This document shows positions 1 through 48,819 of a DNA stretch of 64,000 bases, piece by piece. Under the pieces are notes generated by a model, which worked only from the letters and a program-made list of their open reading frames with translations, made no database searches and was not told the DNA's origin. The position numbers were made by a program, and so were the translations under genes. The DNA lies in NCBI GenBank assembly GCA_051294375.1, contig JBJCIZ010000239.1, positions 5,909,074-5,973,073 of the forward strand. Direction: 5' to 3'. Within the stretch, counting starts at the first letter, position 1. Every line of letters begins with the position of its first letter. The stretch comes from Paraspadella gotoi (lineage: Eukaryota; Animalia; Chaetognatha).

Positions 1-88
1 GAAGAGAGAGAGAAGAGAGAGATGAGAGAGAGATGAGAGAGAGAAGAGAGAGAGAATTCTTGATTAGCTCTCTCCCGAAAGAATCATC

Positions 89-1097
89 ATTATGGTGGAC
101 TAAAATCCACCAAACCGTTCATCAGCGGCCATTGATGCCGGAGGCAAGTCATTCGCCTCCCAACCCAAAAGGTCCGGGTTTATAGCCCGGTGGTCGCCTC
201 GCAGTTAAGAGGGACAGGCGCTTAACCTGCCTGTAACTCGGAGTTACAGCCAGATCCGAAGCTCAGGGACTGCTTATATTGAATGGTTCTGTCACTAACA
301 CATATCAATTATCACTTTCTCTTTCAACTTTAGGCGACATGCCTCAACCTGGCATGCACTTTCCGCCAACAACACATCAGCGACGAATGCCTCAACTTGG
401 TGATGAACTTTCCACCAAACAACAATGTAAAGTCCAGACGAATATCTACAACTCAGATGCTCTTTTATAAAGGAGATATCGACGTTTGTCTCTTTCTCTC
501 TTTTGCAGTCATTCCAATTCTGCTCTGAAACGGGACTCTTCTCTAAAATAATAAACATTTGTGAACGCTTAGTGGATTCTTTGTGGATTGTTTATTTACT
601 ATTGCTTCTTTTATTATTAGTAGTATTATATTATTGTCTGTATGAATATCTAATAGTCTTTGATTATTTTATTAAGGTACCATTAAATATCAAGACTCCA
701 ATGTGGATAAGAAACTTTATTATAAACTTTAGCGGCGCCAGCGGTCCCGGTCTTTAGTCCAGTTTCTCTCCCGACGTCTTCCTCCCTCTCCGCTAGGTCG
801 AGGAGGGGTTCTTTCAACAACAATTCACTGAAGAGATGCAACAGACTTCTCCCTACAGGAGGGGGGGATGTATGGTGACTAAAATCCACCAACCGTTCAT
901 CAGCGGCCATTGATCGCCGGAGGCAAGTCATTCGCCTCCCATCCCAAAAGGTTCGGGGGTTCTAGCCCGGTGGTCGCCTAGCAGTTAAGAGGCGCTTAAC
1001 CCCGCCTGTAACTCGTGTGCTACAGCCTGATCCGAAGCTCAGGGACCGCTTATATTGAACTTCTGTCACTAAACTTATCATTTATCATTAATTTTCA
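89..1097 (+). mobile_element. Non-autonomous two-LTR mini-retroelement (TRIM-like): LTR1 ~89-326, internal 327-868, LTR2 869-1097
   Basis: Two ~230-bp direct repeats, both ending TTTCA. Polypurine tract AGGAGGGGGGGA (857-868) lies directly before the TG start of the second repeat, and a PBS-like TAGGCGAC lies at 331-338. No coding capacity and no clear TSD. Confidence 0.7.
125..198 (+). ncRNA. tRNA-like cloverleaf inside LTR1 (second copy 903-978)
   Basis: 7-bp acceptor stem GCGGCCA/TGGTCGC, D-like stem GAT/GTC, loop CT-CCC-AA with a degenerate anticodon stem, T-arm CCGGG-TTTATAG-CCCGG (copy 2 has GGTTCTAG). More likely a pseudo-tRNA or Pol III promoter than a functional tRNA. Confidence 0.65.
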
Positions 1098-1439
1098 TAT
1101 TCTTTTTTTCTTCTTTCTTTTTTCAATATTTTCTTTCTTTTTTCATTTTCTTCGCCACTGCCGCTTCAGCCGCGGCAGCTTCAGCCGCTGCAGATACGGA
1201 CGCCGTCGCGGCCGATGCCGAGGCCGCTTCGGCTGCTGCAGATACCGCCGTCGGCGCCTCTGCCGCCCCCCTCCGCTGTTTCGACCGAGATTCTTCCGAC
1301 ATCATTCTGAAACTTACTCACTCTAATTGTTGCACAAGTCTCTATAACTCGTTTCACTAAAATTATCCCCTTCAATCAACTCTCATCGACTCACTTTATC
1401 AGGTTTAAAAATGTATTCAACAATTTGTCAATGAAACAG

Positions 1440-1483
<44 letters not shown>

Positions 1484-1484
1484 G

Positions 1485-1731
1485 TCAAGCCTTTCCGCGA
1501 GAGGTCCCCACTTCCGCCACGATAGAGATCAGCGCCTCCGGTTTGAGTTCCACCACGGGATCGTCTCCCAACTCTTCTCCGTCGTGCAGCAACGTCAAGG
1601 AAGCGGCGCGGGCGTTCCTCACCGATATTCCCTCTCCCAAGTGGCGTTTTAGTGAAAGGGCGGAACCGCCAGTGGCGTCGCAGGATGTCGAAGCGTCACC
1701 GGTTGTCGGGTAACGACAATCGGAGGAAGAT
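1485..1731 (-). CDS. Golgi alpha-mannosidase II-like (GH38), exon 11 (last)
   Basis: Acceptor ttttcag; encodes SSDCRYPTTG...SCDATGG...SLTLLH...VELKPEALISIV...KA*, matching the MAN2A C-terminal pattern. TGA at 1487-1485; phase is consistent with exon 10. Confidence 0.85.
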
Positions 1732-2057
1732 CTGAAAAATACGAAATGGTAGATAGTAACTTAATTTTATGCTTTTTATAAATCATCAGCGTTACCACGG
1801 TACCATGGTAGATGGGGGAAAAAAAAGAGCATTCTTTATACCCATCAAGGTAAAAGAAATTGCACATTAAAACATGTTTGTTACTTTTTGAGGTTCTTTA
1901 TCAATTTTTTATAGTTAGTTTAAAAAAAATATAATTCAATATAATTCTTAAAGGGATATACAAAATGCAGATTTTTTTTCCCAAAAATAATTGTAAAATA
2001 CCTTCAATTCAAATTCAAAAAAAAAAGAAAACGAAAAAGTTTTTTTTTTCTTTTAAC

Positions 2058-2227
2058 CTGGATAGTATAAAGACGGCCTCTTTGCCCGGCAAAGTCATTG
2101 ACGCCTCGTCCAATCCTGTCCCGAGGTTCGGCAATGGACGAAGCGACAGGAGATCCACGTCACATGGAAAAGGCGGTGGGGCTTTTGTCGTTGTTTGGGA
2201 CTTGTGTGGAACCCAGTTTTTGTCGAC
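2058..2227 (-). CDS. Golgi alpha-mannosidase II-like (GH38), exon 10
   Basis: FPCDVDLLSLR...AVFILSR resembles MAN2A LPCDIHLVNLR...ALILHR; cag acceptor and gt donor in phase. Confidence 0.85.
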
Positions 2228-2450
2228 CTGTATTGTAAAATATGGACAGATCTGATAACTTACTTGTCTCACGGTTCAGAAACATCATTAATGGGAAAGC
2301 TAGGTGCTCTAGGAATTAATGACTACAATTAGAGAGTTTTTATCAAAAGCTTACGGGATTGTCCCGCTATGTTATCTTGTAAAAAGGAGAAATCATCACA
2401 CCCACCGTAGCTTGTCTAAATTCATGATTTATTGATTGATTATTTGTTTA

Positions 2451-2621
2451 TGAAGAGAGAGTAATTATTGTTATGAGTTAGTGACAGGACCATTCAATAT
2501 AAGCAGTCCCTGAGCATCGGAAAAAGCTGTAACACCGTGTTACAGCCGGGTTAAGCGCCCCGTCCCTCTTAACTGCACCAATGGCCGCTGATGAACGGTT
2601 GGTGGATTTTAGTCCACCATA
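2451..2621 (-). mobile_element. Solo LTR of the 89-1097 family, lacking most of the tRNA-like segment
   Basis: Reverse-complement match to LTR1/LTR2 with about 70 bp missing between GCGGCCATT and GCAGTTAAG; lies in intron 9. Confidence 0.75.
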
Positions 2622-2724
2622 TCTAGTTGATTTGATTTCGATTTGTTTGAAACAATAGACGAAACGGGAGGGGGGGAAAGAAATTTGGTCTTAAAATAAA
2701 AAAAAAATAAAAAAAAAACAAAAC

Positions 2725-3144
2725 CTGCACCGCCCCAGCCTCAGCCGCCGCAGCGTCAGCCGTCGCAGCCTCTGTCGCCCCTTCGATCACTCTCGGTTCC
2801 GCGCTGAAAAAAACTTCTATGGGCGAATTGAGACGACGACGAAGTTGTCGAGCGGCGAAAGAGAGAAGAGGTATCTCTGCAGCCTCCGCAGTCCCTGCAT
2901 CTCCTGCAGCCTCCTCCAGAACGAGATCGTACCGCAGCGTCGCGATTCCGTTGTCGAGAACTCCTTCTCCCATTCCTCGACCGTCGTCCTTCATCAATCG
3001 ACGATCCTGCATCATCTCCAGGCTGCCGTTTCGCTGCGACGAGGCGCCCTGCGGCTGCGCTGACAGCAGAGTCAAGCGTCTCCTGCCGCCGCTGCCGATT
3101 CTATCCTCGATGAACGCCGCGGATGGCATTGGGTAAAAGTTGCC
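2725..3144 (-). CDS. Golgi alpha-mannosidase II-like (GH38), exon 9
   Basis: GNFYPMPSAAFIED...RLTLLSAQPQGASS...GSLEMMQDRRLMKDDGRGMGEGVLDN, a GH38 C-terminal motif; 420 nt, phase 0-0. Confidence 0.92.
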
Positions 3145-3766
3145 CTGGGATATCGGGATATCGAATTAACAGGGAAATAAGAATGGAGATTCCAATGTGT
3201 ATTGCGCCGCGAGATATGTCCTCGAGGGGCAACAGAAGGGGCGGTCTCAGGAGGCAATCTTTTCCAGGGGAGCTACAATATATCTAAAGAATGGAAAAAC
3301 TTTTTGAATTCCCCTTAAAATGAGCCCATGGGGATGCCTTGCTGCCCCTGGGGGAACGTATTTTAGCTATTTTGGGGTGCCCCTAATGCTAATCCCCCAG
3401 AGGAAAGAAAAAGCTTGCCCTATCGGGGAGCCACAAAGGGAATCAGAATTTTCTCCCCTAAAGCCGTATCGACTTTTGTATTTTATTAATTTCCGGGTAT
3501 GTCATCAATCATTTGACATTTGTTAAACTTATCTTTCTTAATTAAGTAATCATATGATCATTGAGAAATATACATGATTAAAATTTTACTGAGTCGCAGC
3601 ACATTATTTTAAAACATTTTAAATAAGTCTTTTAGAAGAACATTCCAAGAGTCTGTTTTGATGTATTTTCCAAGGTCTATGTTAAGACCCTGGCCTAGCT
3701 GGAAATCCAGAAATATTCTTCACCTTAGAAATAGTGAAATCCCGATTGTTTATTAAACAGACCCAC

Positions 3767-3893
3767 CTGTATAGGGAGTTTAGCCAATCGTCGTCGCTTC
3801 ATCATAGCCAGGCTATTGGCGTCCGTGAAAAAGTCGGCACCAGAATCGATGTCCGTGTCAAAGCGCATGACAGGCTCCAGATTGGTATCACTC
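3767..3893 (-). CDS. Golgi alpha-mannosidase II-like (GH38), exon 8
   Basis: Hand translation NLEPVMRFDTDIDSGADFFTDANSLAMMKRRRLAKLPIQ resembles MAN2A FYTDLNG...KLPLQ; cag acceptor, gtgggt donor. Not in the ORF track. Confidence 0.9.
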
Positions 3894-5214
3894 CTGAGCA
3901 ATGAGCATGGAATGATGTTATTAATCCTAAGTTTTTATATACTAATACTCTCCTCAAAAAATTACAACAGCCCATACAAAAATTATCCATTTATTAAATA
4001 AGCTATCTTGTTCAAGACAATGGACAATGGTGATATTACAAGATATCATTATCACAAGATTGCAGAAGCCTGCAAGGTTTTTATTTAGACTCTCAAATAG
4101 TCTAGTTAATTAACTTCCAGAGCTCCTGGCATTCTAATCAATATGTTAGAATAGTATTTAAAAAAAACTGTTTTTCAATAAGTATTTTTTTCTTTTACTT
4201 TATTCAGCCCTGAAAAATGTATCTAAAATATTGTACAAAACTAATGGCATAAGCTTATTATTATTTTTGTGCTTTTAATAAAGAAAAAAATTGCTCTTTG
4301 GTTTTAATTTTTTTTAGCTGGATCTGATCTATAATATAGCTTATTTATTAAATGAATGGATAATTTTTATATTTGTTGTACCAATTTCATAAAATTCAGC
4401 TCCTTGTATTTTGATGCTAATGCGGAGTACAATAAGTATTCCCCGATCTAATACTTAAGGGAGTGGTCTTTTCATACAATTGAAACATTCTTTGAAATTA
4501 TTTTCCACTTCATTGATAGGGAAGCCAGGTACTCTGGGAGTGAATAAACGAGACTGTGAGAGTGTCTTGATTGAAAGCTTGCAGGGACCTGCTATGTCAT
4601 TATCTTGTAAGAGTGATGGAGGCCTTAAACACAAAGCCTGTCCAAAGCAGGGGCAAGATAGCTTATTTATTAAATGAATGGATAATTTTTATATTGGTTG
4701 TACCAATTTCATAAAATTTATAATTCACTTTGTTGGTCAATGGTCAGTCGGTCTCACCACAAAATTTTGTCAGTAAATCATTTAGATCATCTCAGATCAA
4801 AGAATTATGACAAATTATGTATGTAATTATGTCTTTCACTGTCTTTTATCTCTTATCCATCAGCCAATCCCTTCTTCAGATTTAAATGTTAGTTACTCAT
4901 AAGTGGATTAAAACATTTACTTAAGATTTTGTGTGTGTGTAAAGAAGTGTGTGATTGAGCTATAAATAAAGTTTCAATTTTATTATAATATAAAAATTAG
5001 TTTAAAAAGAAAAAATATAAATCATGTTTCACCATTTAATTTTTCTTTTTTTTTATTTAAAATACTACTATATACTACTACCACCACAACCACCGATATT
5101 TCTATAAAAACTATAACCATGTATAATTACCAGAATTTAAACATCTTCAACAACGACAAAAAGCTATTACTTTAAAAATATTGATAATAAATTTTATTTT
5201 TATAAAAAAGATTT

Positions 5215-8200
5215 CAAGATTATGGAGCCGCTACCCGCGACGCCTTTGTACGCGCGACTTTTCGAGATCAAGGAGCCCAACATGGAATCCGCCACTACAT
5301 CGCGACAACAAGGACGCCCATGTTCAGGCTCGTGGCCCGCCGCCTGTCGCCTTGAAAAGTTTAGCAGTGGCCAAGGCCGAATTGACAAAATGGTTAGAGC
5401 TCGGAGTGGCAAGTCCGGGGCAAAGAGTCCATGGGTCCATCGCCCCTCACTGCGTCCCGAAAGGAGACGGAGGATGGCGAGTCTTGCGTGTGATTACCGC
5501 TCAGAGCTTAACGCCACAGACCATACCAGATCGTTATCCAGTGAAATGGTTGGCGGATTTAACGCCAATTGGCAGGCAAAAATGTATTCTCCAAGATCGA
5601 CCTCTTGAAGGTTACCACCGATTCCGCGGTTGGCGCCTGAGGAGTACACAAGACGGCCGTCATTAACCTTTTTTGGCCTTCCGTTTTCCTGCGGGCCCTT
5701 TGGTTTAAAAAACGCAGGACAAGACTTCCAGCGTCTATGGACGAAATTACTCGGAGGCATGCCCCGTGTATATGTCTACCTCGATGACATAACTGGTCGC
5801 GGAGTGAGGATGACGATCAACATGCCAAAGGCATCTGGAGGAGGTGGTTTCGAGGCGCTGCAGGAGGAACGGCTAGTATAATAGCGGGGAAGAAATGCAT
5901 CCTCGGCGCAAGAATCTACTAGCAGTTCCTTTGGATTATCACGTCGAACGAGAGGAGTGGAAGCCACTCCCCCACCGTGTCGACGCCCTGTCGGAAGACT
6001 TGCGCACCCACGACCGTCAAGGAGTTACAACGTTTCCTCGGGATGATAAACTACTACCGACCTTTCATCCCGAGGGTGGCGGCATCAGCGTTGACGCCTC
6101 TTTACGATGCCCTCAAAGGGAAGCCGCTGCCGTTTAGAGTGGACGCCGAGTTGTTCAACGCGGATTTGACGCGTCAAGGGGCTTTAGCGAACGCCGTCTG
6201 CCTTCGCCATCCAAAAACCGGCGCCGCATCTACTCACAACGGAGCGCATTCGCGAGCCACGGCCATTAGGAGCCGTCCGGAGCAGCGCGGGCCAAAAGGC
6301 TGGGAGCCCTTGGCCTTTTTACTTCGGCCAAGCTGAGCGATGCCAAAAGGACAATGCCACCCCTATCGATAGGGAGTATATGGCGCCCTTCCGAAGCCGT
6401 CAGGCATTCTCCGACCATGGCTGGCAGGTCGTACATTCGTCTTATATACAGAATCACATGAGTGCTGATCCACGCCCTTCCACAAAAATTACGGAACCTC
6501 AAACGGCCCGCCAGACATTTAACATCTCGGCCATCTCGGAATATACTACAGATATTCGACATGTTTTTGTGCCGGGGGGGGGGGGGGGGGGGGGGGGGGG
6601 GCCGCAAAAAGGGGCAAGGGGAATGTCGTGGGCCGACGCCCTCTCGCGCCCCCTACTCAAGGCTCCGACATCTCCGCAGCAGACCAATTGGGCCGCTGAG
6701 AATGTCGGAACACGCTTCCCTTGTTGTTCGCCGCCAATTCAGCATCAAGGGTCTCGACCTTCGCAGATGGCGCGCCAAACAGCCATAGATCGAGATTTCC
6801 GTCGACTCTCACAAGATCCCGCCACGGGGCTCCATTTCAAGACGGATCCGCCTTGTGTGACGATTCCCATCTTCGTTGACATCTGCCAATGGCCCGCCAA
6901 GGCCGTTCGTGCCACAAGAGGCTGGCGCCGAAAAGTTTTTTCAGACAATTCATGGATCTGGCGCACCCAGGCATCGCGAGGACGCGAGACGCCTGTGGCT
7001 GAAAAATTTGTCTGGCCCATCGATGCGCGCGGGACGTAACGGTTGGGCACGTGAGTGTATCGCTTGCCAGCGCGCTAAGGTTGACGCGCCACGTCATTCG
7101 GAAATGGCGATTTCGCAGTGCCGCCACGTGCGTTTCCGCATGGTGCACGTGGACGCTTCGTTCAAAATGCCCTCTTCAAATGGTTTCAGCGTAATCCTCC
7201 TCACCGCCGTGCGACAGATTTACGAGATGGCCGATCGGGCGGTGCCGCATAAGGGATATTACAGCAACCGACCCGTCGGCTGATACCTTTGCACATCATT
7301 TGGTCGCATCTTCGGGCATTCCCTGCCGAATCCTACAGATCGCGCGCTCGCAATTTTCTACAACAATCTGGCGACAGCTGCAAGGAAGTCAGACGTCCAT
7401 CAAAACGCTGGGATTGCCAGCTGCGTTAACTACAGCTTACCATCCAGAAGCAAAATTGGATTGGTGGAGCGGATTCCATCGCCGACTAAAGGATCACTCA
7501 TTTGCAATCTCCCACAGACGACCCCGAGCGGGCTGGTATTTGGAGACTTCCCGTCGGCCCTCCTTGCAATTCGAACCACCATCAAACCGGATGTGGTACG
7601 CCTCCCAGCCCAGTTGGTCTACGGAGACCCCTTCACCGTTGCCCGGCGACATCCTGGGACCGAGCCAATCTGAGGCGGAAGAAGCGGGAAGCTCGTCGAA
7701 CGCCTTAGAGACGAACTCCGCAGTCGAAGTTCGAGCAGGCTCCAGCGGCGCCAACCAGCAGGCATCGAAGACCTCGGGTCACCTTCCGGACAGCCTCGCG
7801 GCATGCACGCACCGTCTCATCCGCGCGGGCGGCATATCAACCCGTCTCTACTTTGCACCATACCGAAGGTCCTTTCCGCGTTACAGCAAGAGACAATCAA
7901 AATTGTTAAAAATTGACATTCCGGGTAGAGGCATCGAGACCGCGCCATAGCCCGCGTAAACGGCTAATGTCGACAACGATAAGACGGCGACGCTGCCCAA
8001 GATGAGAGACCTCCGCACGGAGAGTCCAGCCGTCACCTCTCCAGTTCGTCGACGCACGTCGCCGTCCCCGGCAACCGAGCAACGGCGCCTAAATGATGAG
8101 CAAATTGAACCACTTCGCGCCACGCCATCTTAGCACCAACGTCTCCTCGAAGCTCCACCGCTCGACCAGAGCACCTCGCGAGGCCCTACGCGCGCCACGC

Positions 8201-8388
8201 CGCGTTCGGCCTCCGCGCCATTTCCTCGAGCCAAGCCAGCAGACGCCTCGTTGCCGGCCCGAGCGCAGCGGCGACACGCCCAAATTACGGCGCAGGTGTT
8301 ACGACACATCCTTCAGCAAATGATACAACTAAGCCAACAGCTGAAGAAATTGTCTCCTCGTCTCCAACGGTTTCCTCGTCAGGGGGGA
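5215..8388 (+). mobile_element. 5'-truncated, heavily frameshifted Ty3/Gypsy pol (RT-RNaseH-integrase), antisense within intron 7
   Basis: Fragments TIPDRYP, PFGLKNAGQDFQR, YVYLDD, LQRFLGMINYYRPFIP, WEPLAF, ADALSR, ECIACQR, VHVD and TTAYHP occur in RT-RH-IN order; PPT AGGGGGGA at 8381-8388. Some frameshifts may be read errors. Confidence 0.93.
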
Positions 8389-8620
8389 TGTGGGATTTGA
8401 TCCCAGTTTCTTCGCTTTTCAAGTTGACGGAGTTGGGCAAATCGCCAATAATATTATGAACAAACTATCCTTAAACTAATATACAAATTTAACAATAATT
8501 GAATCAAAATTAAAAGAGTCATCTCCGGATTCGATCACGGGAAAGATCATCCACAACAGTGAATTAGAGTTCATCACATCACTGTAATTAAATAAATATT
8601 CCCTTGTATAATTATTATAG
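8389..8620 (+). repeat. Probable 3' LTR of the Gypsy element (right end uncertain)
   Basis: Starts TGT directly after the PPT; AATAAA near 8591. No partner LTR is visible in the window. Confidence 0.45.
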
Positions 8621-9469
8621 CATGTCATATTGATATGTTGAACAAGAGAACATTATAACCTTATATTTTACTAGGGTACATAGTAGTATTTTAATAGTTC
8701 TCATTTCTGTTATATCATTTAGTTCTTAGTTCTTCTGTAAAGAATTTGTTATCAACACTTACTGTCCATCACTACAGTTTGAATACTTATTCTAATTGTT
8801 AAGCTTCATTGATTTTATGTATTCGCTTATTGGATTGTTAGTATTATTTCCTTTGTGGCTTGTTTGTGCATATAGATACTCTATGGAATTCTATGGAATA
8901 TCTTCTTATATGCCTTATGATTTTTTAGTTAAGGTGATTTTATAAATGAACAAAATAATATTTTGTTCTGAAAACATTTTTTCTTATTGAACGAACTAGT
9001 TGAGGCGGCAGACGCATACGTGGGTGGTTCGTTCACCACATTTATTGCATTTATCGATAAAACCGGGTTGATTAAGTACAATCATAATCAACAACCAGAC
9101 TAAATCTGAAACATAAAAATATATTAAAATAAAGAAAAATAGAAAACAAATTAATTTGTAAATAATAAATAATAAACAAACAATAAAAAACTGTTCTTAT
9201 GTTTTAAAAAACCGAATTTAGTTTCTGAATAACTGTATTTTTTATTACTTATTATTTTATTAGCCGCTTACCAATCTTAATGATCGTAAGCAGATCTCGC
9301 ATTGTTTCCTACTTCTTTCATTCTGTTTATTCTTCCACCCTTCAATCCCTTTATTTTATCTCTCTTTTCCTTGATCCCTTATCCTTTTATAATTCTGATA
9401 TTTAGCCTTCCACACCTTTATTCTTCTATCACTCTATCCTTCTATCCCCCTATCCTAACCCCAACAAAC

Positions 9470-9763
9470 CCTTTAAGCGAAATACGGTTGGTGATGAGAA
9501 TTGACTGACGCAATACGGAATCTTTGCAAGTTTGAATCGAAGGTAAGGACAGATTCCCTTCATCCCTCATCCCTCCGACCATTTCCAAAACGTGCTCGAT
9601 CATGGGAAAGAAGACCCTGACCGTGGTCACCAATGGACCCGCAATGATCATAGCCATCAGAGGTGGTGAACTGTCAATGGCCGGGCCCTTTGGCCTGAAG
9701 AGATAAGCCCCGCTGTTGTCCGACGGGTACCACCAGAACCCGATTCGCGCCTCGAGTTTGTTT
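9470..9763 (-). CDS. Golgi alpha-mannosidase II-like (GH38), exon 7
   Basis: KLEARIGFWWYPSDNSGAYLFRPKGPA...AGPLVTTV contains the SGAYLF motif. Acceptor gggtag is inferred from phase; donor gtttgt. Confidence 0.85.
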
Positions 9764-11189
9764 CTACCCAGTGAGCAAACGCGAATGACTTATTTAACGT
9801 TAAAATGATATTATTTTATATACTTATTAAATTTTTAGCTTATAGCAGATTCCGGCTCTATAATTCTCTTTGTTGGTCCATCGGTCCGCCCCCCAATCTT
9901 GTTGGGCATTCACTGATATCATGTCAGAACATTGAATTATGATAAATTATGCAAAAAAATTATGTTCATCTGTCCATCCGTCTGTCTGTCAGTCCATCCC
10001 AAAAAACTCTAATTACTCGAGATTGAATGATTGGATTGGGATGAAATTCTGTGTGTGGGTAGGGAAGTGTGTGATTGAGCTGGTTATGAAGTTTCGATGG
10101 AATTGTCTGAGTGGAAATGAGTTTAAATAAAAAAAAAACAAAAACCTGTTTCGCTAATTGATTATGCTTCTTTTTTTAAATATTAAATGACATTGTATAT
10201 TTATTATATTAAATGTAAATGTAAGATGCATTAATTAATCAAATAATTAATCAGTTAGTTAATTATTAGTCAATTAAATAATAAATAATTAATTAATCAG
10301 TCAATAATTAATCAATTAGTTATTCACTCAATAAATTAATTTATCTATTAATTAATTATTCAATCAATCAATTTATTTATCAATTAATTATTTAATCAAT
10401 CAATCAATTAAGTCATTCGTTATCGGTATTATTGTCGTCGTTGCCATCATCGTCGTCGTTGCTTTGATTGTAGTCAGTGACGAAAAAACCTAAAAACAAA
10501 CATTTTGGATCAAAATAATTAATTCATTAATTGCTTTATTTATTAATCGACTTGAATTAATTAATTAAATTATTACCGCTAATGATCCTTGGCAAATCCG
10601 ACATTGTTTGCTCAAACTTGTTTATTTGTAACTAAATTCATTTTTTATTATACCGTACAGAAATTAATTAAAAAAAACTATTTTTAAAATATTTCTTATT
10701 AAAAAAAGATTTTAAATATTTTAAACAATAAAAAATTATATTGATGTAAAAAAATGCTTTTCAATTTAGAGGGGTTTGACCATTTATCCAGAATTTTTTT
10801 AAAAAAATTATTAATTTAAAAGTATCAAATCTAAATAAATATTTTTTTTTATGTTTTAGCATCAAATTAATGTAGTTAATCATTAATTTTTTTTTGTATT
10901 TAATTTTAAAGTGAAAAGTTAAAAAAATATTTCAGTAATTTTTTGTTAATATTTCTCAAATAATATTAACAAGGTAAGACTTAATATTATGTCCGGATAA
11001 ATGGTCCCACCCTTGTATATCAACAAAAAATTTAATTTTATTTTCAAAAAAAAAAATAAATAAATAAATATAATAGATGATCAGCTTTCAGCAATAGTAT
11101 TATATAAAAAAAATTAAAAACCTTTCACTAGGTATTAAAAATTGATAATTTTTTTTGTTTTTTTTTGTAAGTCATTCGCGATGGGAGAC

Positions 11190-11616
11190 GCTGTATCATC
11201 CTTGGCTCCGGCCTTGACCATCCGCCTCATAAGCCCGTCGTTGCCATCGAACTCAACGGCCAGACATCCGTTGCTCAGATTGAATCCCTCTCCGCGAGTC
11301 CATGGATCAACGCGAAACTCGTCCGATTCTAGGGTGAGGTTCGGGTAAGTGAAGAGTTCGACGATGGTCGCGGCGGCGGAGGAAAAGCCGGACGAATCCC
11401 CAGTCGCCGAATGGACGAAGATCCTCTCGATCCGAAGAGGTTCCATTTCCAATTCGAAGATCAATTCGTAAAGGCCCGATTCGGGTTTTCCGGGGTTGAC
11501 CCAGACCGGGTCGATCTGATGTCGGAGGATCTTTCCCGTCGTCTTCGTCGTTTTTAATTGAACGTCTCGTCGATTGACGCGCAATCTTATCATCTCCCGA
11601 CGTTTGAAGGGTAAAC
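11190..11616 (-). CDS. Golgi alpha-mannosidase II-like (GH38), exon 6
   Basis: GLPFKRRE...QIDPVW...YELIFELEMEPL...LSNGCLAVEFDGNDGLMRRM. Donor gtctcc is inferred from phase and alignment length. Confidence 0.85.
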
Positions 11617-11617
11617 C

Positions 11618-11863
11618 TGTAGACGGGCATTGCTCTATGTTAACCCCGCCAAAAAGCATGTGATCTTCGATCGTGACCCGGTGGATCATTGCGTAAAGCC
11701 ATCAGCTAGGTGCCGGGTTTAATCCCAACCCGCTACCTACCCTGCGGCAAGTGTGAGGACGGCCATAAACTGCCTTAGGGCCCTGCCTGGTTCCAAGCCC
11801 TAGCGCCCCTTCCATGGCTGTTGAGGGATAGTAGTCTTTAGCCCACTTAGCGCCTCATCTACA
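11618..11863 (+). mobile_element. 246-bp solo-LTR-like element with internal tRNA-like A/B boxes (family 2, Helenus-like)
   Basis: Ends TGTAGA...TCTACA with 4-bp TSD AACC (11614-11617 and 11864-11867). Internal GACCCGGTGGATCATTGCGTAAAGC...GGGTTTAATCCC; homologous copy at 17832-18112. Confidence 0.8.
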
Positions 11864-12347
11864 AACCTTCAGAAAACCGGAAAATTCGGAATCAATGTTA
11901 TCAATCTAATGGCCGTATTTAATTAAAAATTAGATTGTAAATTAGAGTTAAGGATTAGGATTAGGATTAGTTAGGGACTTTGATAGTGACAAGGGTTAGG
12001 GATTTTGTTTAAGGATTAGGATTAAAAATTAAAGTTTAAGTTTAACATCCAATATTAGGTTAGGGTTTGGGATTAGGAGTTAAGGTGAGGGATTTGGGTC
12101 AGGGATTAAGTTAAAGAATAGGTTTTAAATTTAAGAATATTTTTAATTTAAAAATTAAATTATGGGATAAACGAAGAGAAATGGAGTACTCTAGGAAAAA
12201 AGAGCTAGTTAATATTAATTATAATTTAATTATAATAATAATATAATAATATATAATATAATAATAATAATAATAATTATTATAATAATTATAATTTAAT
12301 TCTTTCCGACGATATTCACTCCTCCCGGGTATTTTGTTTCTGCCGAC

Positions 12348-12663
12348 CGTTGACCAAAACGACGAGAGTGACGGACGGAGAGAAGTTACGGACATCCACG
12401 ACGACCGGTTCCACGCCAACCACCGTAGCTTTGGGCAAGAGGGTCACCCGAAGCGTCTCGTTCTCTTCTTCCTGCAAAGTCCCCAAGTCCATGAGCGAAC
12501 CAAGAGCTCCGACCAGCGCCCTCTGCGCTTTGACAAATCCTTCGCTGAGGCGTCGCGCGATGTCCGCCGCGCTGTGTTTTTTAGAAGTGCCGGTGATGTC
12601 GTCGTGGTGTTGGAAAAGAGCGAGCTGTTGATGAGCCGAACGGAGGTCTCGGAATTCGTGAAA
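12348..12663 (-). CDS. Golgi alpha-mannosidase II-like (GH38), exon 5
   Basis: Hand translation LALFQHHDDITGTSK (Zn-ligand His motif QHHDxITGT) through VVLVN; aacag acceptor, gtcggc donor. Confidence 0.92.
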
Positions 12664-13011
12664 CTGTTGGTGGACAAATGGACATTACGACAAGTTCATC
12701 CCCGCTTTTGAGCTCTGCTCATTGAGTAATAACGTGGAGCGATGAAAAGATTGAGACACAAGATTGAGGCCCGAGGCATTTCCTGCCTCTGTATATGTAA
12801 ATGATAAAATTAAGGCTCTTAACCAAAAAATAGGAATATCCTAAATAATATATATAATTTTTTTTTTCAACTTTAAAAATAAAAATAATAATAATAATAA
12901 TAATAAAAATAAGCTATATATTAGTAAAGAAAGATAAATAACTACATATAAGATAGTTTTTTCTAAATATAACTGCTATATTGTGATTTCTCTTCACCCT
13001 AATCCAGAGAC

Positions 13012-13141
13012 CTTTCTCTCTCGGCTGGCCGGAGGATTATCCCTGGCGTCGGCCGAGAGTGTAAAGAAAATATCAGTCACGCGAAGAAGCGATTCCAAAC
13101 GGCGGCCGAGAACTTTCCAAGACATTCTCGTAGTGTAGTAG
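13012..13141 (-). CDS. Golgi alpha-mannosidase II-like (GH38), exon 4
   Basis: Joins YWSG to YYTTRMSWKVLGRRLESLLRVTDIFF; tccag acceptor, gtctct donor. Confidence 0.88.
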
Positions 13142-13635
13142 CTGGAGGAGGGAAAACGACAACTGAAAAGTTCAAGGTGTTGCACCGCAGTTAGTTATCG
13201 TAAACGCATGTTATGCATTATTCATTACAATATACATTACAATATATTACAATATACATTACAATATACAAGTATGAAATATTAATTATTGTTACCTAAC
13301 TTCTATGCTAAATATTGATTGAGTATTTAGTTACAATGTTTTAACTTTTTAGTTATGAAATTGGTACAACCAATATAAAATTTATCCATATTCATATACT
13401 AACCGAAAAAATGGAATTAACACTTATTGATAAGCTCCACTATTACTTGTGGTGTAAATAAAAAACAAGTTTGAGCAAACAACGTCGAATCTGCTTATGA
13501 TAAATAAGTGGGAATAAGCTAAACCGATGATAAATCACGATAATTCTTTCTGACTTTCAATTGGTGATTTTAACAGATCATAACATACCATAACAGACTT
13601 CTTAATAAATCTTTAAAAAAAATTATGAATCATGT

Positions 13636-13884
13636 GCGTAATTTGGTCAACTTGAATAATTGGGGCAACTTGCATAATTTGGTCAAATGGCATAATTTGG
13701 TCAACTAGCATAATTTGGTCAGCTGGCATAATTTGGTCAACTGACATAATTTGGTCAACTGGCATAAATTGGTCAACTGGCATAATTTGGTCATCTTGGC
13801 ATAATTTGGTCAACTGTCATAATTTGGTTTACTTGCATAATTTGGTCAACTGGCATTAATTGGTAAACTGGCATAATTTGGTCA
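13636..13884. repeat. 18-bp minisatellite (CTGGCATAATTTGGTCAA)n
   Basis: About 13 diverged tandem units; the same repeat occurs reverse-complemented at ~29752-30032. Confidence 0.9.
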
Positions 13885-13973
13885 GAAAAAAAACACGAAA
13901 TTTAAGCCATCATAAAATATAGACTATGCAGCAAACAAATTTACTTTCTTAAAAGCTATTTCCAAGTTCTCAC

Positions 13974-14728
13974 CCGCTCCAATACGATTCATCGCCGTCA
14001 TTGTACGTGAAAAAGTCTCCGCTGAGAGTCTTGAGCGGCGAAACCTTTTCCAACGCCTCGTCCGCGGCTTCAAAGTATTCGGAGAGCGTCGCGAACTTGG
14101 CCTTAACCCTCAGCTCGTCCGAGTGTTTGTTGAAGTGTTCGAAGAGCTTGCTCCAATTCTCGAACTGCCGGTCGAACTCGCCCGGATCGCTGTAGTAAAA
14201 ATCATCTCCCAGTATGACCATCACCACGTTGTGTTTGAACCACAACGACTTTTTTCGCAATTGATCCAGGAGCTTGAGCGCTTGACCGCGAAGGTTCAAA
14301 GGATCGATGGCGGGCGCGGAATCCGTCGTCCGAAAATTGTATTCGGCGCAGATCCAATGCATGGGACCGCAAGATTTGATGGTGTAGACGTGGAGCGGGT
14401 TGAGGTAGACTCTGAGATCGTCGGAGCCTTGGTCGTCCCACATCTGACGCCAGACGAACTCGGCGTCGGCGTTCAGGTCCAAAAACTCTTTCATCTTGTA
14501 GTGGATCCGATTGATGACTGAATGCTTCAGTCCGGCCAATGATCGTATCCGAGCCGCCGTCGCCGAGTAGCCGAAAGGATCGATGTTGAAGCTCGTCTTG
14601 GGGGTGTATCCTAATTTTTGTCGCAGGAAGAGATGACCCTCCAGCATCTGATCCACGAGGGCGTAGCCAGTGGGGTTGGCTTCGTCGGGCATCACCCATC
14701 CTCCTCCAGCGATTTCGAAACGACCCTC
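13974..14728 (-). CDS. Golgi alpha-mannosidase II-like (GH38), exon 3 (catalytic core)
   Basis: EGRFEIAGGGWVMPDEAN, IDPFG (nucleophile Asp), NRIHY, LGDDF (acid/base Asp), GDFFTY...YWSG. Confidence 0.96.
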
Positions 14729-15270
14729 CTTGATTGACAATATTTTTTTTAGGAAGGGGCCCCTTTTTATCCTAATTAAATTTTACAATCTGATCCTTAT
14801 TAATGTTCCCTTATCTCAAATCCCTGATCAATGGGCTGATGAGTGATGTGATATTTTTTTAAATCAAAATTAAGGATTTATATCGTTAAAATTATCTTTG
14901 ATGATTTTATGATTTTATGCAGTAAGGCGTAGTGAAAGTTGCAGATCAAAATTCGAATAGTTTTTCAAGAACAGTCTTGTAACAAAGAACATTAATATAA
15001 AATATTAATTTATCAATTTTCGCATACACCCATATCTCTACCCATCTACCCATCTACCCATCTATACCCATATCTATACTGAGCAGACCTGAGAAGTCGC
15101 CTCATCCTGTTTTATGAATTTAAAAATTAAAATTCTAAAAGTCCTCAACCGAATCTTAAATCTAAACTAAATCTAAATCTAAAACTTAATCTTAACTAAA
15201 AAACCGAACTTAATTCCAAGTTTAAAGCTTGAAAAGGAAAGCCCCTTCCGAAAAAGCAAAATTATGTTCC

Positions 15271-15675
15271 CTTGATCAGAGCATTCAAGAGGCCCCGCAT
15301 AGTTGAGTTGGCAGAATCCCACCACCACGAAAGGTAAATAGATTCCATCCAGATGAAAGTCATTTTCTTGTATTGGTGCAGTTTGAGGACGGCGTTCGTG
15401 ATGACGCGGCTAGATTTCTCGTTGTAGTAGACCTCGGCAGTCTCGAGCCAACCCGGATCGGTGTGAGAGAAAGGAACGAGAAAGACTTGCAAAGGGTCGT
15501 CCCGCCAACGAGAGAGATTGTAGTCCAAGTACAGCTTGGCCCAGTCTTTGTCCCCTCCTCCCTTCTTTGGCATCGGGAGAATTTCGTACAGATTTAATGT
15601 TGAAATGTTTACGGAGGCTTCGCGTTGATCGTTGTTGCAACTCATCGATATTTCCTTAACCGTTGAGGAAATTAA
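15271..15675 (-). CDS. Golgi alpha-mannosidase II-like (GH38), exon 2
   Basis: LQVFLVPFSHTDPGWL (Zn-ligand HxD), FIWMESIYLSWWWD. The acceptor could be at 15675 or 15654; the donor is non-canonical (see findings). Confidence 0.9.
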
Positions 15676-15706
15676 CTGTCTTGATTTGACTTGGCAGTTT
15701 TTGGGT

Positions 15707-15708
<2 letters not shown>

Positions 15709-15777
<69 letters not shown>
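15709..15777. repeat. (TC)n microsatellite; one of many GA/TC tracts (also 1-56, 1443-1480, 30880-31018, 50550-50900)
   Basis: Seen directly. Confidence 0.95.
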
Positions 15778-15783
<6 letters not shown>

Positions 15784-15859
15784 CTCTTTCTTTCTCTCTC
15801 TTCTCTTTCACGGACTTCAACAAAAAACTCCACATTAAATATTTTCTTTTTATAGAATG

Positions 15860-16065
15860 TTGGCCTTATTTTCCGAGAGTGACCCTCTTCTGTTTGGTAA
15901 ACCCAGAATTTAATTTTGACTATAACCTTTAACCTAAATCCCTAACCATAATCACAAACCAAGTCCCTAACCTTAAATATTATTCTAATCCCTAACCTAT
16001 ACCCAAACCCAAACCTTTAACCTCCTCTTTGAATAAAATGGGCCGTTCTTGGAAAATAAGGCCAA
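15860..16065. mobile_element. MITE-like element with internal degenerate (CCCTAA)n
   Basis: 15-bp perfect inverted ends TTGGCCTTATTTTCC / GGAAAATAAGGCCAA; related ends plus TTAGGG-like tracts at ~62585-62800 and ~11909-12205. Confidence 0.6.
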
Positions 16066-16192
16066 TTCGGGTCTTTAAGGGAGACCCGCCAAATAATTTG
16101 CGAAGGGGCCTTGCCATTTCTCTACACTCACCCTCACAAGACCCGGATTCCCTTTCCGGGTCGGGCTCCACCTCTTAAAAAAAAATAATTAC

Positions 16193-16324
16193 CTTGTCTG
16201 AATGCGACCACTCTTCTTTTACCGTAGGTTCGTTCCAGGCGCTGAACAAAAGGCCAATGAAGAATAGAATGATGAAGAGCGCCGCGCAGAATCGTCGGCC
16301 GAGTCTGAAGCGAAAACGAATCAT
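16193..16324 (-). CDS. Golgi alpha-mannosidase II-like (GH38), exon 1 (type II signal anchor)
   Basis: MIRFRFRLGRR basic tail followed by hydrophobic FCAALFIILFFIGLLFSAW; AAG/gtaatt donor. Confidence 0.8.
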
Positions 16325-17104
16325 CCTGGCAAAAGCGGAATAGTCAACAGCTGAATCGGTAAAGGGTTTCTTTATCAAAGTTTTTTTTCTTTACTTCATA
16401 GGAGGGAACGACGGAGCGACGTCGACTGAGGAAGGTAGCATGTTGAGAAACTTTTAAAGATAAAGAAAACAAGATGCGATAAAATTCGTACTATTTAAAA
16501 GAAAAGTTTTAAAAAATGTACAATTTTATAAGTACAGTAAATCGATTTACAAGAATTGCAAAATTTAAAAGGGAAATGGCGAATTAAAAGTTTAAAAATT
16601 GCTGCGTTGAAAAATATGCTATAAAAAAATAAATTAATCCAATATGAATTGGTGCGTAACTAATATAGTGCTAAAAATTATTATATAAAAAAAAAATAGT
16701 ACAAAATTATTTAATTTTTCTGTCCGTAAAATATGTATCCGTAAGTTTTTGGTTGAAATGAACTTTTTTTTGTTGGATGATTGTTTTAATTGCATTCGCT
16801 TTATATATATTCATTTATCTTTTTAATCTTTATCGAAAATTTGTTTGAAAGTTCGTAAAAATATTTTTGGTTGCAACCTATCTTTTTTTTTCGTTCCGTA
16901 ATGCAATTTAAATTTGAAATCTTTTACTTGCAGTTTGAAGGTGAATTCGTCATTATTTTTAGCTCACCGTCTTTTTCTTTTAATGATTTCACTTTTCATT
17001 TCTTATCTGTTTTTCCCTATTCTTTGAATCGCACGTACTCTGGGAGTGAGTGAACAAACTAAACCGCGTGCGTCTTAATCGAAAGCTTGGAGGGTCTTAA
17101 TAGG

Positions 17105-17831: not shown

Positions 17832-18112
17832 TGTGGATAAAGCACTAAGTGTGATGAAGATGACTATCCGCAACTTCTTAAACCCCTCTAACAGCGATGG
17901 AACGGTTCCTGGACTTTGAAGGCTTGAAAGTTTTCCGGACCCCCAAGGCGGTTTATGGCCATCCTCACACTTCCCGCAGGGTAGGTACCAGGGTAAGATT
18001 GAACCCTGTATCTAGTGGTCATGACCTGATGGCTTTACTCAATGAGCCATCGGGTCACAACTGAAGGTGTCTTGCTTATAGGCAGGGTCAACTTAGGCAA
18101 TGCCCGACTACA
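17832..18112 (-). mobile_element. Family 2 solo-LTR-like element with tRNA-like boxes (noisy duplicate at ~39945-40330)
   Basis: TG...CA ends, 4-bp TSD ATCA (17828-17831 and 18113-18116), colinear with 11618-11863; A box TGGCTCATTGAG, B box GGTTCAATC. Confidence 0.8.
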
Positions 18113-29718: not shown

Positions 29719-29751
<33 letters not shown>

Positions 29752-30815
29752 TACCAAGATTATGCCAGTTGACCAATTCTGCAAGTTAATCAAGTTTTGG
29801 GCAAGTTTGACCAAATTATGCCTGTTGACCAAATTAGGCTAGTTGATAAAATTATGCCAGTTAACCAAATTTATGCCGGTTGACCAAATTATCTTAATTG
29901 ATCATAATTATGTCAGTTGACCAAATTATGTCAGTTGACCAAATTTATGTCAGTAGACCAAATTATGTCAGTTAACCAAATTATGTCAGTTGACCAAAAT
30001 TATGCAAGTTGATTAAATTATGCAAGTTGACAAAGAATAGCTTATTACCACTTAATTATCGATTGACCTGGAATTTTGTATGTGAGTAGAAAAGGTGTGT
30101 GATTAAACAGGAAACCAAGTTTCGATGGAATCTTTTGAGTGGAAATGAGTTTAAATGGAAAAAAACAAAAAACCTGTTTCACTAATTGATTATGCTTCTT
30201 TTTCCTTTTATATTAAATGTATATGCAGGATGTATTATAGTCAAATAATTAATCAGTTAATTAATCAATTAGTCAATTATTAATCAAAATTAATTAATCA
30301 GTCAAATCAATCCGTCCATCCGTCCCACCTTAGCCAAAAAGCTCCAATAACTCGTGATTGGCTGGTTGGATTGAAATGAAATTTTGTTGTGTGGGTAGGA
30401 AAGTGTGTGTGATAAAGCTGGATTAACGTTTCGACGAATCGTGTGAGTGGAAATGAGTTTAGTGGAAAAAAACATAAGTCGCATTTACTAAAATCTTTTT
30501 TACTTATTTAACAATAAGTACTCTAATTAATCATAATTGGATGGATAGATTGAGTTTCAATTTTTTTGGTGTAGAAAAATGTGTATCGATGCTTGATATT
30601 AAGTTTGGTGGAAACGTACGAGTGGAAATGAGTTTAATGAAAAAAATATAGTCATTTACTTGAATCTTTTTATTATTTTTAACCCATAATAGATTGAGAT
30701 GAAATTTTGGTGAGGCGGTAGGAAAGTGTGTGAAAAAATCTAGATATAAAGTTTGACGGGAATTGTGCCAGTGGAAATGAGTTTAAATGGAAAAAACCTA
30801 AGTCACATTACTTGA
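29390..30815. repeat. Cluster of ~6 copies of a ~120-bp dispersed repeat (GAAATTTTGTGTGTGGGTAGGAAAGTGTGTG...GAGTGGAAATGAGTTT)
   Basis: Copies at ~29390, 29570, 30070, 30377, 30557 and 30700; also at 10042 and 55510. Confidence 0.8.
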
Positions 30816-46800: not shown

Positions 46801-47697
46801 GCACCCACCCTGCAAAATTCCACTAACTCCTCATTCGCCCTGCCAACAAGTATATATACACAGAGGCTCGAATTATAAGCACCACCCTGCAAAATTCCCT
46901 AACTCCTCATTCGCCCTGCCAATCAAGTATATATACACAGAGGCTCGAATTATAAGCACCACCCTGCAAAATTCCCTAACTCCTCATTCGCCCTGCCAAT
47001 CAAGTATATATACACAGAGGCTCGAATTATAAGCACCACCCTGCAAAATTCCCAACTCCTCATTCGCCCTGCCAATCTAGTATATTATATATCAGAGGCC
47101 TCGAATATAAGCACCACCCTGCAAAATTCCCTAACTCCTCATTCGCCTGCCAATCAAGTATATATACACAGAGGCTCGAATTCATAAGCACCACCCTGCA
47201 AAATTCCCTAACTCCTCATTCGCCCTGCCAATCAAGTATATATACACAGAGGCTCGAATAATAAGCACCACCCTGCAAAAATTCCCTAACTCCTCATCGC
47301 CCCTGCCAATCAAGTATAATTACACAGAGGCTCGAATTATAAGCACCACCCTGCAAAAATTCCCTAACTCCTCATTCGCCCGCCAATCAAGTATATATAC
47401 ACAGAGGCTCGAATTATAAGCACCACCCTGCAAAATTCCCCCTAACTCCTCATTCGCCCTGCCAATTCAAGTATATATACACAGAGCCTCGAATTATAAG
47501 CACCACCCTGCAAAATTCCCTAACTCCTCATTCGCGCCTGCATCAAGTATATATACAAGAGGCTCGAATTATAAGCCACCACCTGCAAAATTCCCTACTC
47601 CTTCATTCGCCCTGCCAATCAAGTATATATACAACAGAGCTCGAATTATAGCACCACCTGCAAAATTCCCTAACTCCTCATTCGCCCTGCCAATCAA
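40800..47697. repeat. 77-bp satellite array (clean from ~45850; noisy and mixed orientation before that)
   Basis: Unit CCCTGCAAAATTCCCTAACTCCTCATTCGCCCTGCCAATCAAGTATATATACACAGAGGCTCGAATTATAAGCACCA; period measured from 46861 to 46938. Confidence 0.95.
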
Positions 47698-48819
47698 TCA
47701 CGTCATCGTCGTCGTCTTCATGTCGTCTCCGTGAACATCGATGTCGTCATAGTCTTTGTCATCGTTCTATTGTTGTCTTCGTCATCGTCGTCGTCGTCAT
47801 CTGTCGTCGTCTTCAACGTCGCCGTGAACATCGATGTCGTCCATAGTCTTCGACGTCGTCGTCGTCGTCGTCGTCGTCGTTCGTCGTCGGTCGCTCCATC
47901 GGTCTCTCATGGAAATCGATCGAATTTCCCGCCAAAAATATAATTAAAGAGAAAAAAAATCGATAAAAAACAGATAATTATTACCGCAATAAAACTTGAA
48001 TATTTTTTTTCATTGTTGGTTCGCGCATTGACGTGCGGGATATAGAAACGCATGAAAACCAATTAAGAGAATAAAATATATAACTATCGAGTAAATCGAT
48101 TGTAATAAAAAAAAAATTATGCTCTTAGGCATAATCGGATTTTTCTTATTTACTGTACATAAAAATGAGATATTACGTTGTTTATCTGCGTGGAGAATTA
48201 CATCTTCCTTTCATTTGCCGTGTGACATGTAATGAGTTGTGAAGCACTGGAAAATGAAGAATAAGCAGGATGCACACCACACGCACACCCTGGTTTCACG
48301 AAGCGCACCACACCGCACTCAAAGACAATCAAAGCATTACAACAAACGAGGATACTTAACACTTAACATTAACATATATTCTTTAAGAACAACAAAAAAA
48401 TAATGCGACGAGGAAACGGCTGGGAAAAACAAATTGTTACGCTTCGTCGGTATAAAAAAGCCAATAAAACATCGGCTCCTCGGCGAGAAAATGCCAATTA
48501 AAGCAAAATAAACAACTTTTTAAAAAAAAGCATAAAGCATTGTTCTTCGATCATCCTCGTCAATCTCCGGCCATATTTTTCCCGCCAACAATTATTTTTT
48601 TCTCTTCTTCTCCTCTCATCGCAGTTTATCTGTCGGACCAGCGACGCTTCGCAGAGATGGAGCCACGCATCTCGCATAAGGAAAAATGGTTCTCTTTTCC
48701 AAATACCCCTGTTTTCCAATTTTGTTTTGTCAAATTTATTTTAACCTTAATTTATAATTTATAATCTATTACCCAAAACGCATAACCTTAACCTTATCCT
48801 TAACCCAAAATCTATGTCA

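What the first reader, a model, noticed from the sequence alone, without database searches (positions are those of the whole stretch)
3145..15270. Introns with self-complementary ends: candidate structure-guided splice-site pairing
Seen: four of ten introns have unrelated GC-rich inverted repeats close to both ends. Intron 2 has GGAAGGGGC/GCCCCTTCC (14752-14760, 15241-15249) with extendable flanks. Intron 5 has three nested 6-nt blocks (11870-11891 with 12304-12342). Intron 6 has a perfect 13-bp repeat (9780-9792, 11168-11180). Intron 8 has a perfect 8-bp repeat (3152-3159, 3739-3746). Three of the four have poor donors (GG, GTCGGC, GTCTCC), and several acceptors lack a pyrimidine tract. Known analogies: euglenid non-conventional introns, MITE-derived larvacean introns, AC/GT bridges in fish. 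Inference: terminal stems bring splice sites together and compensate for weak signals, or these introns derive from diverse TIR elements.
Basis: partly seen in the sequence, partly recalled or inferred. Interest (0 to 1): 0.8.

Follow-up and report, generated by a model that had tools for sequence, protein, structure and literature searches.

The report
Transposon-relic introns with paired ends
In one invertebrate mannosidase gene, two of ten introns have ends that base-pair more than chance gives and also have the weakest splice donors (one is a rare GG-AG intron); they are likely leftovers of jumping-DNA insertions that became introns, and whether the pairing helps splicing is untested.

Summary
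The region is an intact, spliced invertebrate Golgi alpha-mannosidase II gene (minus strand, 10 introns; contigs of a probable RNA run skip all ten). The quoted repeats are present, but only introns 2 and 6 pair end to end beyond chance. Intron 8 is borderline. Intron 2 looks like an aged introner: GG-AG, a 7-nt direct repeat across the junction, imperfect inverted repeats reaching the insert ends, and a position absent from relatives. Intron 6 has a perfect 13-bp repeat and almost no U1 match but no duplication. These two have the weakest donors, yet across ten introns donor weakness does not track stem strength (p=0.19), other weak donors lack stems, and the stems show no sense-strand bias. 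No second copy of any arm was found in the window and no genome was available, so neither a family nor a splicing role is shown. The scan had noted LTR inserts in this genome's introns and introner-like introns in a protist, not this. Verdict: likely transposon relics of a known kind.

The parts
1485..16324 (-). Golgi alpha-mannosidase II (GH38) gene, 11 exons, about 1133 codons; start codon inferred
   Evidence: Pfam PF01074 and PF07748; Drosophila GMII structure 1hty E 6e-53; junctions from X1 contigs; open frame
14729..15270 (-). Intron 2, 542 nt; the only register that ends in AG is GG...AG; donor context AAG|GGA
   Evidence: Joint 14727/15270, 7 letters fit either side; register from the sequence
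14728..14734 (-). Downstream copy of the 7-nt junction repeat (ATCAAGG on the gene strand); supplies the acceptor AG; candidate target-site duplication
   Evidence: a run of 6 or more seen in 1 of 90 cross-intron pairs
15270..15276 (-). Upstream copy of the 7-nt junction repeat; supplies the +1 G of the donor
15232..15269 (-). Intron 2 5' arm (imperfect inverted repeat, intron +2 to +39)
   Evidence: duplex -28.7 kcal/mol, p=0.002; 26.7 expected end-to-end pairs against at most 6.7 in 10 swapped controls
14736..14768 (-). Intron 2 3' arm (intron -40 to -8); its A-run sits where a pyrimidine tract would be
9764..11189 (-). Intron 6, 1426 nt, GT-AG; donor AGC|GTCTCC matches the donor consensus at 2 of 9 positions; no junction repeat
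11168..11180 (-). Intron 6 5' arm of the perfect 13-bp inverted repeat (+10 to +22)
   Evidence: p=0.002; 1 in 4000 background pairs; 16.2 end-to-end pairs against at most 7.2 in 5 of 9 possible swaps run
9780..9792 (-). Intron 6 3' arm (-29 to -17)
10409..10419 (-). Third, internal copy of 11 of the 13 arm bases, same orientation as the 5' arm
3145..3766 (-). Intron 8, 622 nt, strong donor; 8-bp inverted repeat 3739-3746 / 3152-3159, borderline
11617..12347 (-). Intron 5 as spliced, 731 nt; ends not complementary beyond chance
11867..12347 (-).
   Evidence: sequence; inference
11618..11863 (-). 246-nt solo-LTR-like insert, TGTAGA...TCTACA, 4-bp duplication GGTT; its CA plus the duplicated G forms the present acceptor
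   Evidence: second copy at 17832-18112 with duplication ATCA
17832..18112 (+). Second, diverged copy of the solo-LTR-like insert, upstream of the gene

Best explanation
Intron 2, and less securely intron 6, are likely aged insertions of unrelated inverted-repeat DNA elements that became spliceosomal introns, so their paired ends would be relics of terminal inverted repeats rather than a dedicated splicing signal. Shown: both are removed from the transcript; their ends are complementary beyond chance; they have the two weakest donors; intron 2 has a 7-nt repeat across its junction and can end in AG only as GG-AG; relatives run through the intron 2 site. Inferred: an element inserted at an exonic AAG|G site with a 7-8-bp duplication; the first copy gave the +1 G, the element's terminal G gave +2, and the second copy gave the AG; the spliceosome tolerates the result, as in Eurytemora. 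The stems may ease splicing as a by-product (untested). Intron 8's repeat is probably chance or a more decayed relic. Intron 5's stem is chance and lies at an older acceptor that a solo-LTR-like insert displaced by 250 nt. That insert is removed either with the whole intron or as a second, recursive intron (AG|GT at 11867/11866).
For: I2 and I6 statistics. Junction repeat. Taking an 8-bp duplication with one mismatch, the insert starts GA and ends TC and 9 of its first 12 bases match the opposite end (sequence). 5 of 5 related fragments that cover the I2 site (57-60% identity, 2 clusters) run through it; 4 fragments end exactly at I3; one runs from its Met to I3 with no I1 or I2. 7 of 7 fragments run through the I8 site. 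No sense-strand preference of the stems: I2 -28.7/-31.0, I6 -22.9/-25.2, I8 -18.5/-19.5 sense/antisense, as expected of DNA-level repeats. The same gene shows a mobile element building a splice site from its end plus its duplication (I5). The donor context AG|GGA matches the copepod GA/GG pattern (PMC5714493).
Against: No second copy of any arm in the 64-kb window, so no family. The 7-nt repeat is only modest evidence (1 of 90 cross pairs, about 0.1 over ten introns). I6 has no junction repeat and its arms are offset from the ends. I1 is also absent from the one relative that covers it and has no repeat. That the related fragments are genomic is inferred from where they end, and they may be paralogues; loss in relatives is not excluded. 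A perfect 13-bp match in an otherwise AT-rich, insert-laden intron is easier to explain if selection keeps it.
Confidence: 0.5

Rival explanations
1. The stems are kept by selection as RNA bridges that hold the two splice sites together and let introns with unreadable donors or no pyrimidine tract be spliced, whatever their origin.
For: The two strongest stems are on the two weakest donors by U1 duplex energy, I6 +0.1 and I2 -3.5 kcal/mol; I2 also has the poorest pyrimidine tract. Whole-intron folding predicts the stems with probability about 0.9. Native end pairs beat permuted pairs, p about 0.009. Precedent in fish (PMC4691745) and euglenids (PMC11282704).
Against: Spearman p=0.19 over 10 introns. 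I4, I5, I7 and I9 have weak donors (U1 duplex -4.1 to -5.6) with no stem; I8 has a stem and the strongest donor. No sense-strand bias. The I2 and I8 stems would cover the region just upstream of the acceptor. No orthologous intron sequence, so no covariation test.
Confidence: 0.27
2. All the repeats are chance: GC-rich patches near exon borders in AT-rich, repeat-laden introns find partners, and attention was drawn to the best cases.
For: Holds for I5 and probably I8. Non-native pairs can pair as well: I7 5' with I8 3' gives -25.9 kcal/mol, and I1 with one swapped end gives 21.4 pairs. The I6 arm motif has a third copy in the intron and near-copies in another repeat.
Against: I2 and I6 survive a tenfold correction in shuffles (0.02, 0.01) and against real non-coding background from this window (0.0045 and 0.00025-0.001 per pair).
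Confidence: 0.15
3. The GG donor is an assembly error or a private variant of an ordinary GT donor, which would remove the most unusual feature of intron 2.
For: The spliced product does not fix the base at 15269; the window has error-prone-looking stretches such as a long G run at about 6575-6601.
Against: The exons of this gene carry no frameshift over 1132 codons. G at +2 is the base complementary to the C at the other end of the insert, and the AG|GGA context is the one reported for real GG donors (PMC5714493).
Confidence: 0.08

Closest known systems
Introners with TIRs and TSDs (Micromonas, Aureococcus, Florenciella, Symbiodinium; bioRxiv 10.1101/2022.06.06.494994 passages; review PMC11282704 parts 1-3 of 5)
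   Same: New intron position; splice sites co-opted from the duplication and the element end; terminal inverted repeats
   Different: Those are families of 5 or more similar copies; here each intron has its own unrelated, decayed arms, no sister copy was found, and I6 lacks a duplication
GA/GG-donor introns of the copepod Eurytemora affinis (PMC5714493, whole text) and GA-AG introns of Oikopleura dioica (PMC7072748, passages)
   Same: GG donor preceded by exonic AG and with A at +3; recently gained, obligatory intron
   Different: Those papers, as far as read, report no inverted repeats or duplications; here 1 of 10 introns is GG and the genome-wide rate is unknown
Fritillaria borealis non-canonical introns (via review PMC11282704 and bioRxiv 10.1101/2025.08.15.670264 passages)
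   Same: Animal introns traced to non-autonomous DNA transposons with terminal repeats
   Different: There under 10% of introns are GT-AG and the acceptor is changed; here 9 of 10 are GT-AG and all end in AG
Zebrafish (AC)m-(GT)n bridged introns (PMC4691745, abstract listing and passages)
   Same: End-to-end pairing in introns that may lack a pyrimidine tract
   Different: Simple repeats shared by thousands of introns, with function shown by experiment; here unique sequences and no functional data
Euglenid non-conventional introns (review PMC11282704)
   Same: Unrelated introns each with paired ends; pairing that reaches the last bases in I6 and I8
   Different: Those lack GT-AG borders and leave as circles; here the borders are G(T/G)-AG and ordinary spliceosomal removal is assumed
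Solo-LTR introners of Panicum virgatum (PMC12130899, passages)
   Same: A solo LTR that forms a removable intron, as the I5 insert would
   Different: Here the insert landed on an existing acceptor and extends an old intron; only two copies seen

Membership tests
Introner (TIR/TSD DNA-transposon type) | Intron is spliced out at a lineage-specific position | tested here: met
   I2 spliced; 5 of 5 covering relatives lack it. I8: 7 of 7 lack it. I6 position not covered by any close relative
Introner (TIR/TSD DNA-transposon type) | Terminal inverted repeats of 6 nt or more near the intron ends | tested here: met
   I2 imperfect about 33-38 nt; I6 13 bp perfect but offset
Introner (TIR/TSD DNA-transposon type) | Target-site duplication at the junction | tested here: inconclusive
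   I2 has 7 nt (1 of 90 cross pairs); I6 has none; I8 has only CAG|G
Introner (TIR/TSD DNA-transposon type) | Several sequence-similar introns in the genome (a family) | tested here: inconclusive
   None in the 64-kb window; no genome held
Eurytemora-type GA/GG donor introns | GG or GA donor after exonic AG, A at +3, obligatory for the frame | tested here: met
   AAG|GGAACA; frame needs the removal
Eurytemora-type GA/GG donor introns | About 10% of introns genome-wide | not testable with these tools
   One gene only; no other host gene recognised among 90 ORFs scanned outside it
Structure-bridged introns (fish AC/GT type) | Complementary simple repeats at both ends | tested here: not met
   Arms are unique sequences
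Structure-bridged introns (fish AC/GT type) | Pairing needed for splicing; independence from U2AF2 | not testable with these tools
   Needs minigenes
Euglenid non-conventional introns | Non-GT-AG borders of pyrimidine|purine type, circular excision product | tested here: not met
   9 of 10 GT-AG, 1 GG-AG; excision product not testable
Solo LTR (I5 insert) | TG...CA ends, short inverted ends, 4-6-bp duplication, more than one copy | tested here: met
   Two copies, duplications GGTT and ATCA
Solo LTR (I5 insert) | A full element with two such repeats and an internal region | not tested
   None seen in the window; a small TG...CA DNA element is not excluded

The most novel reading that the evidence does not exclude
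This animal lineage keeps gaining introns from unrelated mobile elements and splices those with unreadable donors (GG, or C|GTCTCC with almost no U1 match) by means of each intron's own end-to-end stem: a euglenid-like, sequence-independent bridging rule inside an animal spliceosome, with solo LTRs adding recursive AG|GT steps.
Probability: 0.15. Interest if true: 0.75.

Novelty: new member of a known kind. Interest (0 to 1): 0.4.

Why it matters
If intron 2 is a decayed introner, it links GG donors, reported in a copepod without an origin, to transposon insertion, and shows what an introner looks like after its family resemblance is gone. It also adds an unidentified invertebrate lineage to the few animals with such donors. 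If the stems are needed for splicing, this genome would be a natural test of whether RNA structure lets new introns with poor signals survive, a step in intron gain that is still open. On present evidence it is one gene with two good cases.

Tried and rejected
No listed holder is on record as RNA; X1 is treated as probably RNA because its contigs skip introns. Laying X1 on 14600-15400 at 80% likeness gave no cover at either end of intron 2: this neither confirms the GG base nor tests for a family. X2 and X3 held next to nothing. Two scans of metagenome contigs gave no related locus (250 pattern hits, none confirmed; one locus, L001, a chance match in bacterial-looking DNA). Rfam over 1-17000 gave one match at E 0.51, taken as chance. 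Pfam found no other host gene among 90 of 118 candidate ORFs scanned outside the gene; 41000-47700 was left out as tandem repeat. Vertebrate exon borders inferred from isoform indels coincided with none of the ten introns (nearest: 3 codons from I2), but this recovers only some borders. A FastTree tree placed the protein on a long branch among invertebrate sequences (Diaphorina, Nilaparvata, Lottia, Patella, Haliotis) with only unnamed neighbours, so the phylum stays unknown. A U12 reading of the I6 donor was considered from recalled consensus and dropped: one mismatch at +3, no convincing U12 branch site. A reverse-transcription artefact at I2 (repeat plus stem) was rejected because the frame and homology require the removal. 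Paper searches: (0 papers); none listed describes this combination in this kind of animal, but the library lacks most subscription papers and no supplements were read. Earlier-findings look-ups by place near, by the insert's sequence and by words found nothing on this.

Full report
What the region is. The minus strand carries a Golgi alpha-mannosidase II gene (GH38; Pfam; Drosophila GMII 1hty at E 6e-53; best named hits about 45% identical). Contigs of run X1, probably RNA, skip nine introns directly; the tenth (2228-2724) is fixed by the 34 letters between two pieces of record 1. For seven of the nine joints the tool marks the letters between as not known; the exons nevertheless join into 1132 codons without a stop, and the I2 joint is clean. 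A tree places the protein on a long branch among invertebrate sequences; the phylum is not known.

Check of the observation. Duplex energies of the first and last 40 nt against 1000 shuffles give p=0.002 for I2, 0.001 for I6, 0.043 for I8 and 0.45-0.98 for the other seven; native pairs beat permuted pairs at p about 0.009. Against 4000 random non-coding pairs from this window, a duplex as stable as I2's occurs in 0.45% and a 13-bp perfect match in 0.1% (0.025% with four or more G/C); an 8-bp match like I8's occurs in 7.9% (0.45% with four or more G/C). One non-native combination reached 21.4 pairs, so strong pairing does arise by chance. Result: two real cases, one borderline, one not.

Intron 2. 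Seven bases are repeated across the junction, so eight registers give the same mRNA; only one ends in AG, and it begins GG. The context AAG|GGA has the exonic AG and +3 A that Robertson reports for GA and GG donors in Eurytemora (PMC5714493, whole text read). Five related fragments (57-60% identity, two 90% clusters) run through this site; four fragments end exactly at intron 3, where reading on into the intron gives Gly-stop in our gene, which is why I take them as genomic; one runs from its first Met to intron 3 with neither intron 1 nor 2. This is the layout of an introner that takes its splice sites from its duplication and its end (bioRxiv 10.1101/2022.06.06.494994, passages; PMC11282704, parts 1-3 of 5). 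Against it: a run of six or more occurs in 1 of 90 cross-intron pairs, about 0.1 over ten introns, and no sister copy of either arm is in the window.

Intron 6. The donor AGC|GTCTCC matches the consensus (recalled) only at GT, with a computed U1 duplex of +0.1 kcal/mol, the weakest of the ten. The 13-bp repeat lies at +10 and -17, with a weaker pairing out to the AG. There is no junction repeat, and 11 of the 13 bases recur inside the intron at 10409-10419. A transposon origin is plausible but less supported; this is the best candidate for a stem kept by selection.

Intron 8. The position is absent from 7 of 7 fragments of other animals. The donor is the strongest U1 match in the gene, so compensation is not needed. 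The repeat is borderline.

Intron 5. The extra block is a 246-nt insert with TGTAGA...TCTACA ends and a 4-bp duplication GGTT; a diverged copy at 17832-18112 has its own duplication ATCA. It landed three bases into the exon, and its terminal CA plus the duplicated G rebuilds CAG| before the same first exon base. The old acceptor is now followed directly by GTTTGT, the same hexamer as the intron 7 donor, so two-step (recursive) removal is possible and would give the same mRNA; use of the old acceptor alone would shift the frame. Two rows of equal depth 12.1 at 11623 and 11991 suggest one unspliced contig across the insert, so the sequenced animal likely carries it (inference).

Do the stems compensate for weak signals? 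The two strongest stems are on the two weakest donors (1 in 45 by chance), and I2 has the poorest pyrimidine tract (0.38). But the rank correlation over ten introns is not significant (rho -0.45, p=0.19), four weak donors have no stem, and the I2, I6 and I8 duplexes are slightly more stable on the antisense strand, giving no sign of RNA-level G-U tuning. Transposon-born introns are expected to have both poor donors and inverted repeats without any causal link. Fish AC/GT introns show that bridging can replace U2AF2 (PMC4691745, passages), and fungal sister stwintrons carry 45-55-nt terminal repeats (PMC8469720, abstract), so the idea has precedent but is untested here.

Verdict. Most likely (0.5) decayed transposon-derived introns, a known kind, with a GG-AG example in an unidentified invertebrate; stems selected as bridges 0.27; chance 0.15; GG an error 0.08. 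Interest 0.4. The bold reading, a sequence-independent bridging rule in an animal, has probability about 0.15 and would merit 0.75. No supplements were read; those of the introner surveys may list this lineage.

Noticed in passing
window 11618-11863 and 11866-11867: Solo-LTR-like insert that rebuilds a splice acceptor from its CA end plus the duplicated G and leaves an AG|GT site, a possible recursive splice point
   Followed up: partly
window about 5200-8420 (+), inside intron 7: GC-rich, frameshifted retroelement-like pol remnant antisense to the gene (YLDD-like motif near 5770, recalled as Ty3/gypsy type; not scanned)
   Followed up: no
window about 2453-2620, 91-323, 871-1072: Repeated element in intron 9 with two more copies downstream of the gene; resembles the twister-bearing LTR family in earlier notes on this genome; Rfam gave no hit
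   Followed up: no
window 13636-13884 and 29750-30034: 18-nt tandem array in intron 3 with a second array elsewhere in the window
   Followed up: no
window 11947-12120, 15895-16010, 62586-62733: Degenerate telomere-like (GGTTAG/GGATTAG) arrays in introns 5 and 1 in opposite orientations and near the window end
   Followed up: no
window 10751-10792 and 10992-11033: 42-nt inverted repeat, 71% complementary, inside intron 6; a candidate MITE
   Followed up: no
window 1146-1301 and 2725-2790: An Ala-rich coding-like block downstream of the stop codon resembles the Ala-rich end of exon 9
   Followed up: no
X1 records 2 and 3 on window 14613-14731: Two further mannosidase II paralogues about 85% alike in the same run; both keep a Lys-Glu-Gly junction at the intron 2 site
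   Followed up: partly
introns 4, 5, 6, 7, 9, 10: Donors in this gene are generally far from consensus (GTCTCT, GTCGGC, GTCTCC, GTTTGT, GTTTTG, GTTAAA), suggesting relaxed 5' splice-site recognition in this animal
   Followed up: partly
P0279, P0293: Relatives in one 90% cluster differ in an apparent intron before the DPLK motif, suggesting ongoing intron turnover in this lineage
   Followed up: partly
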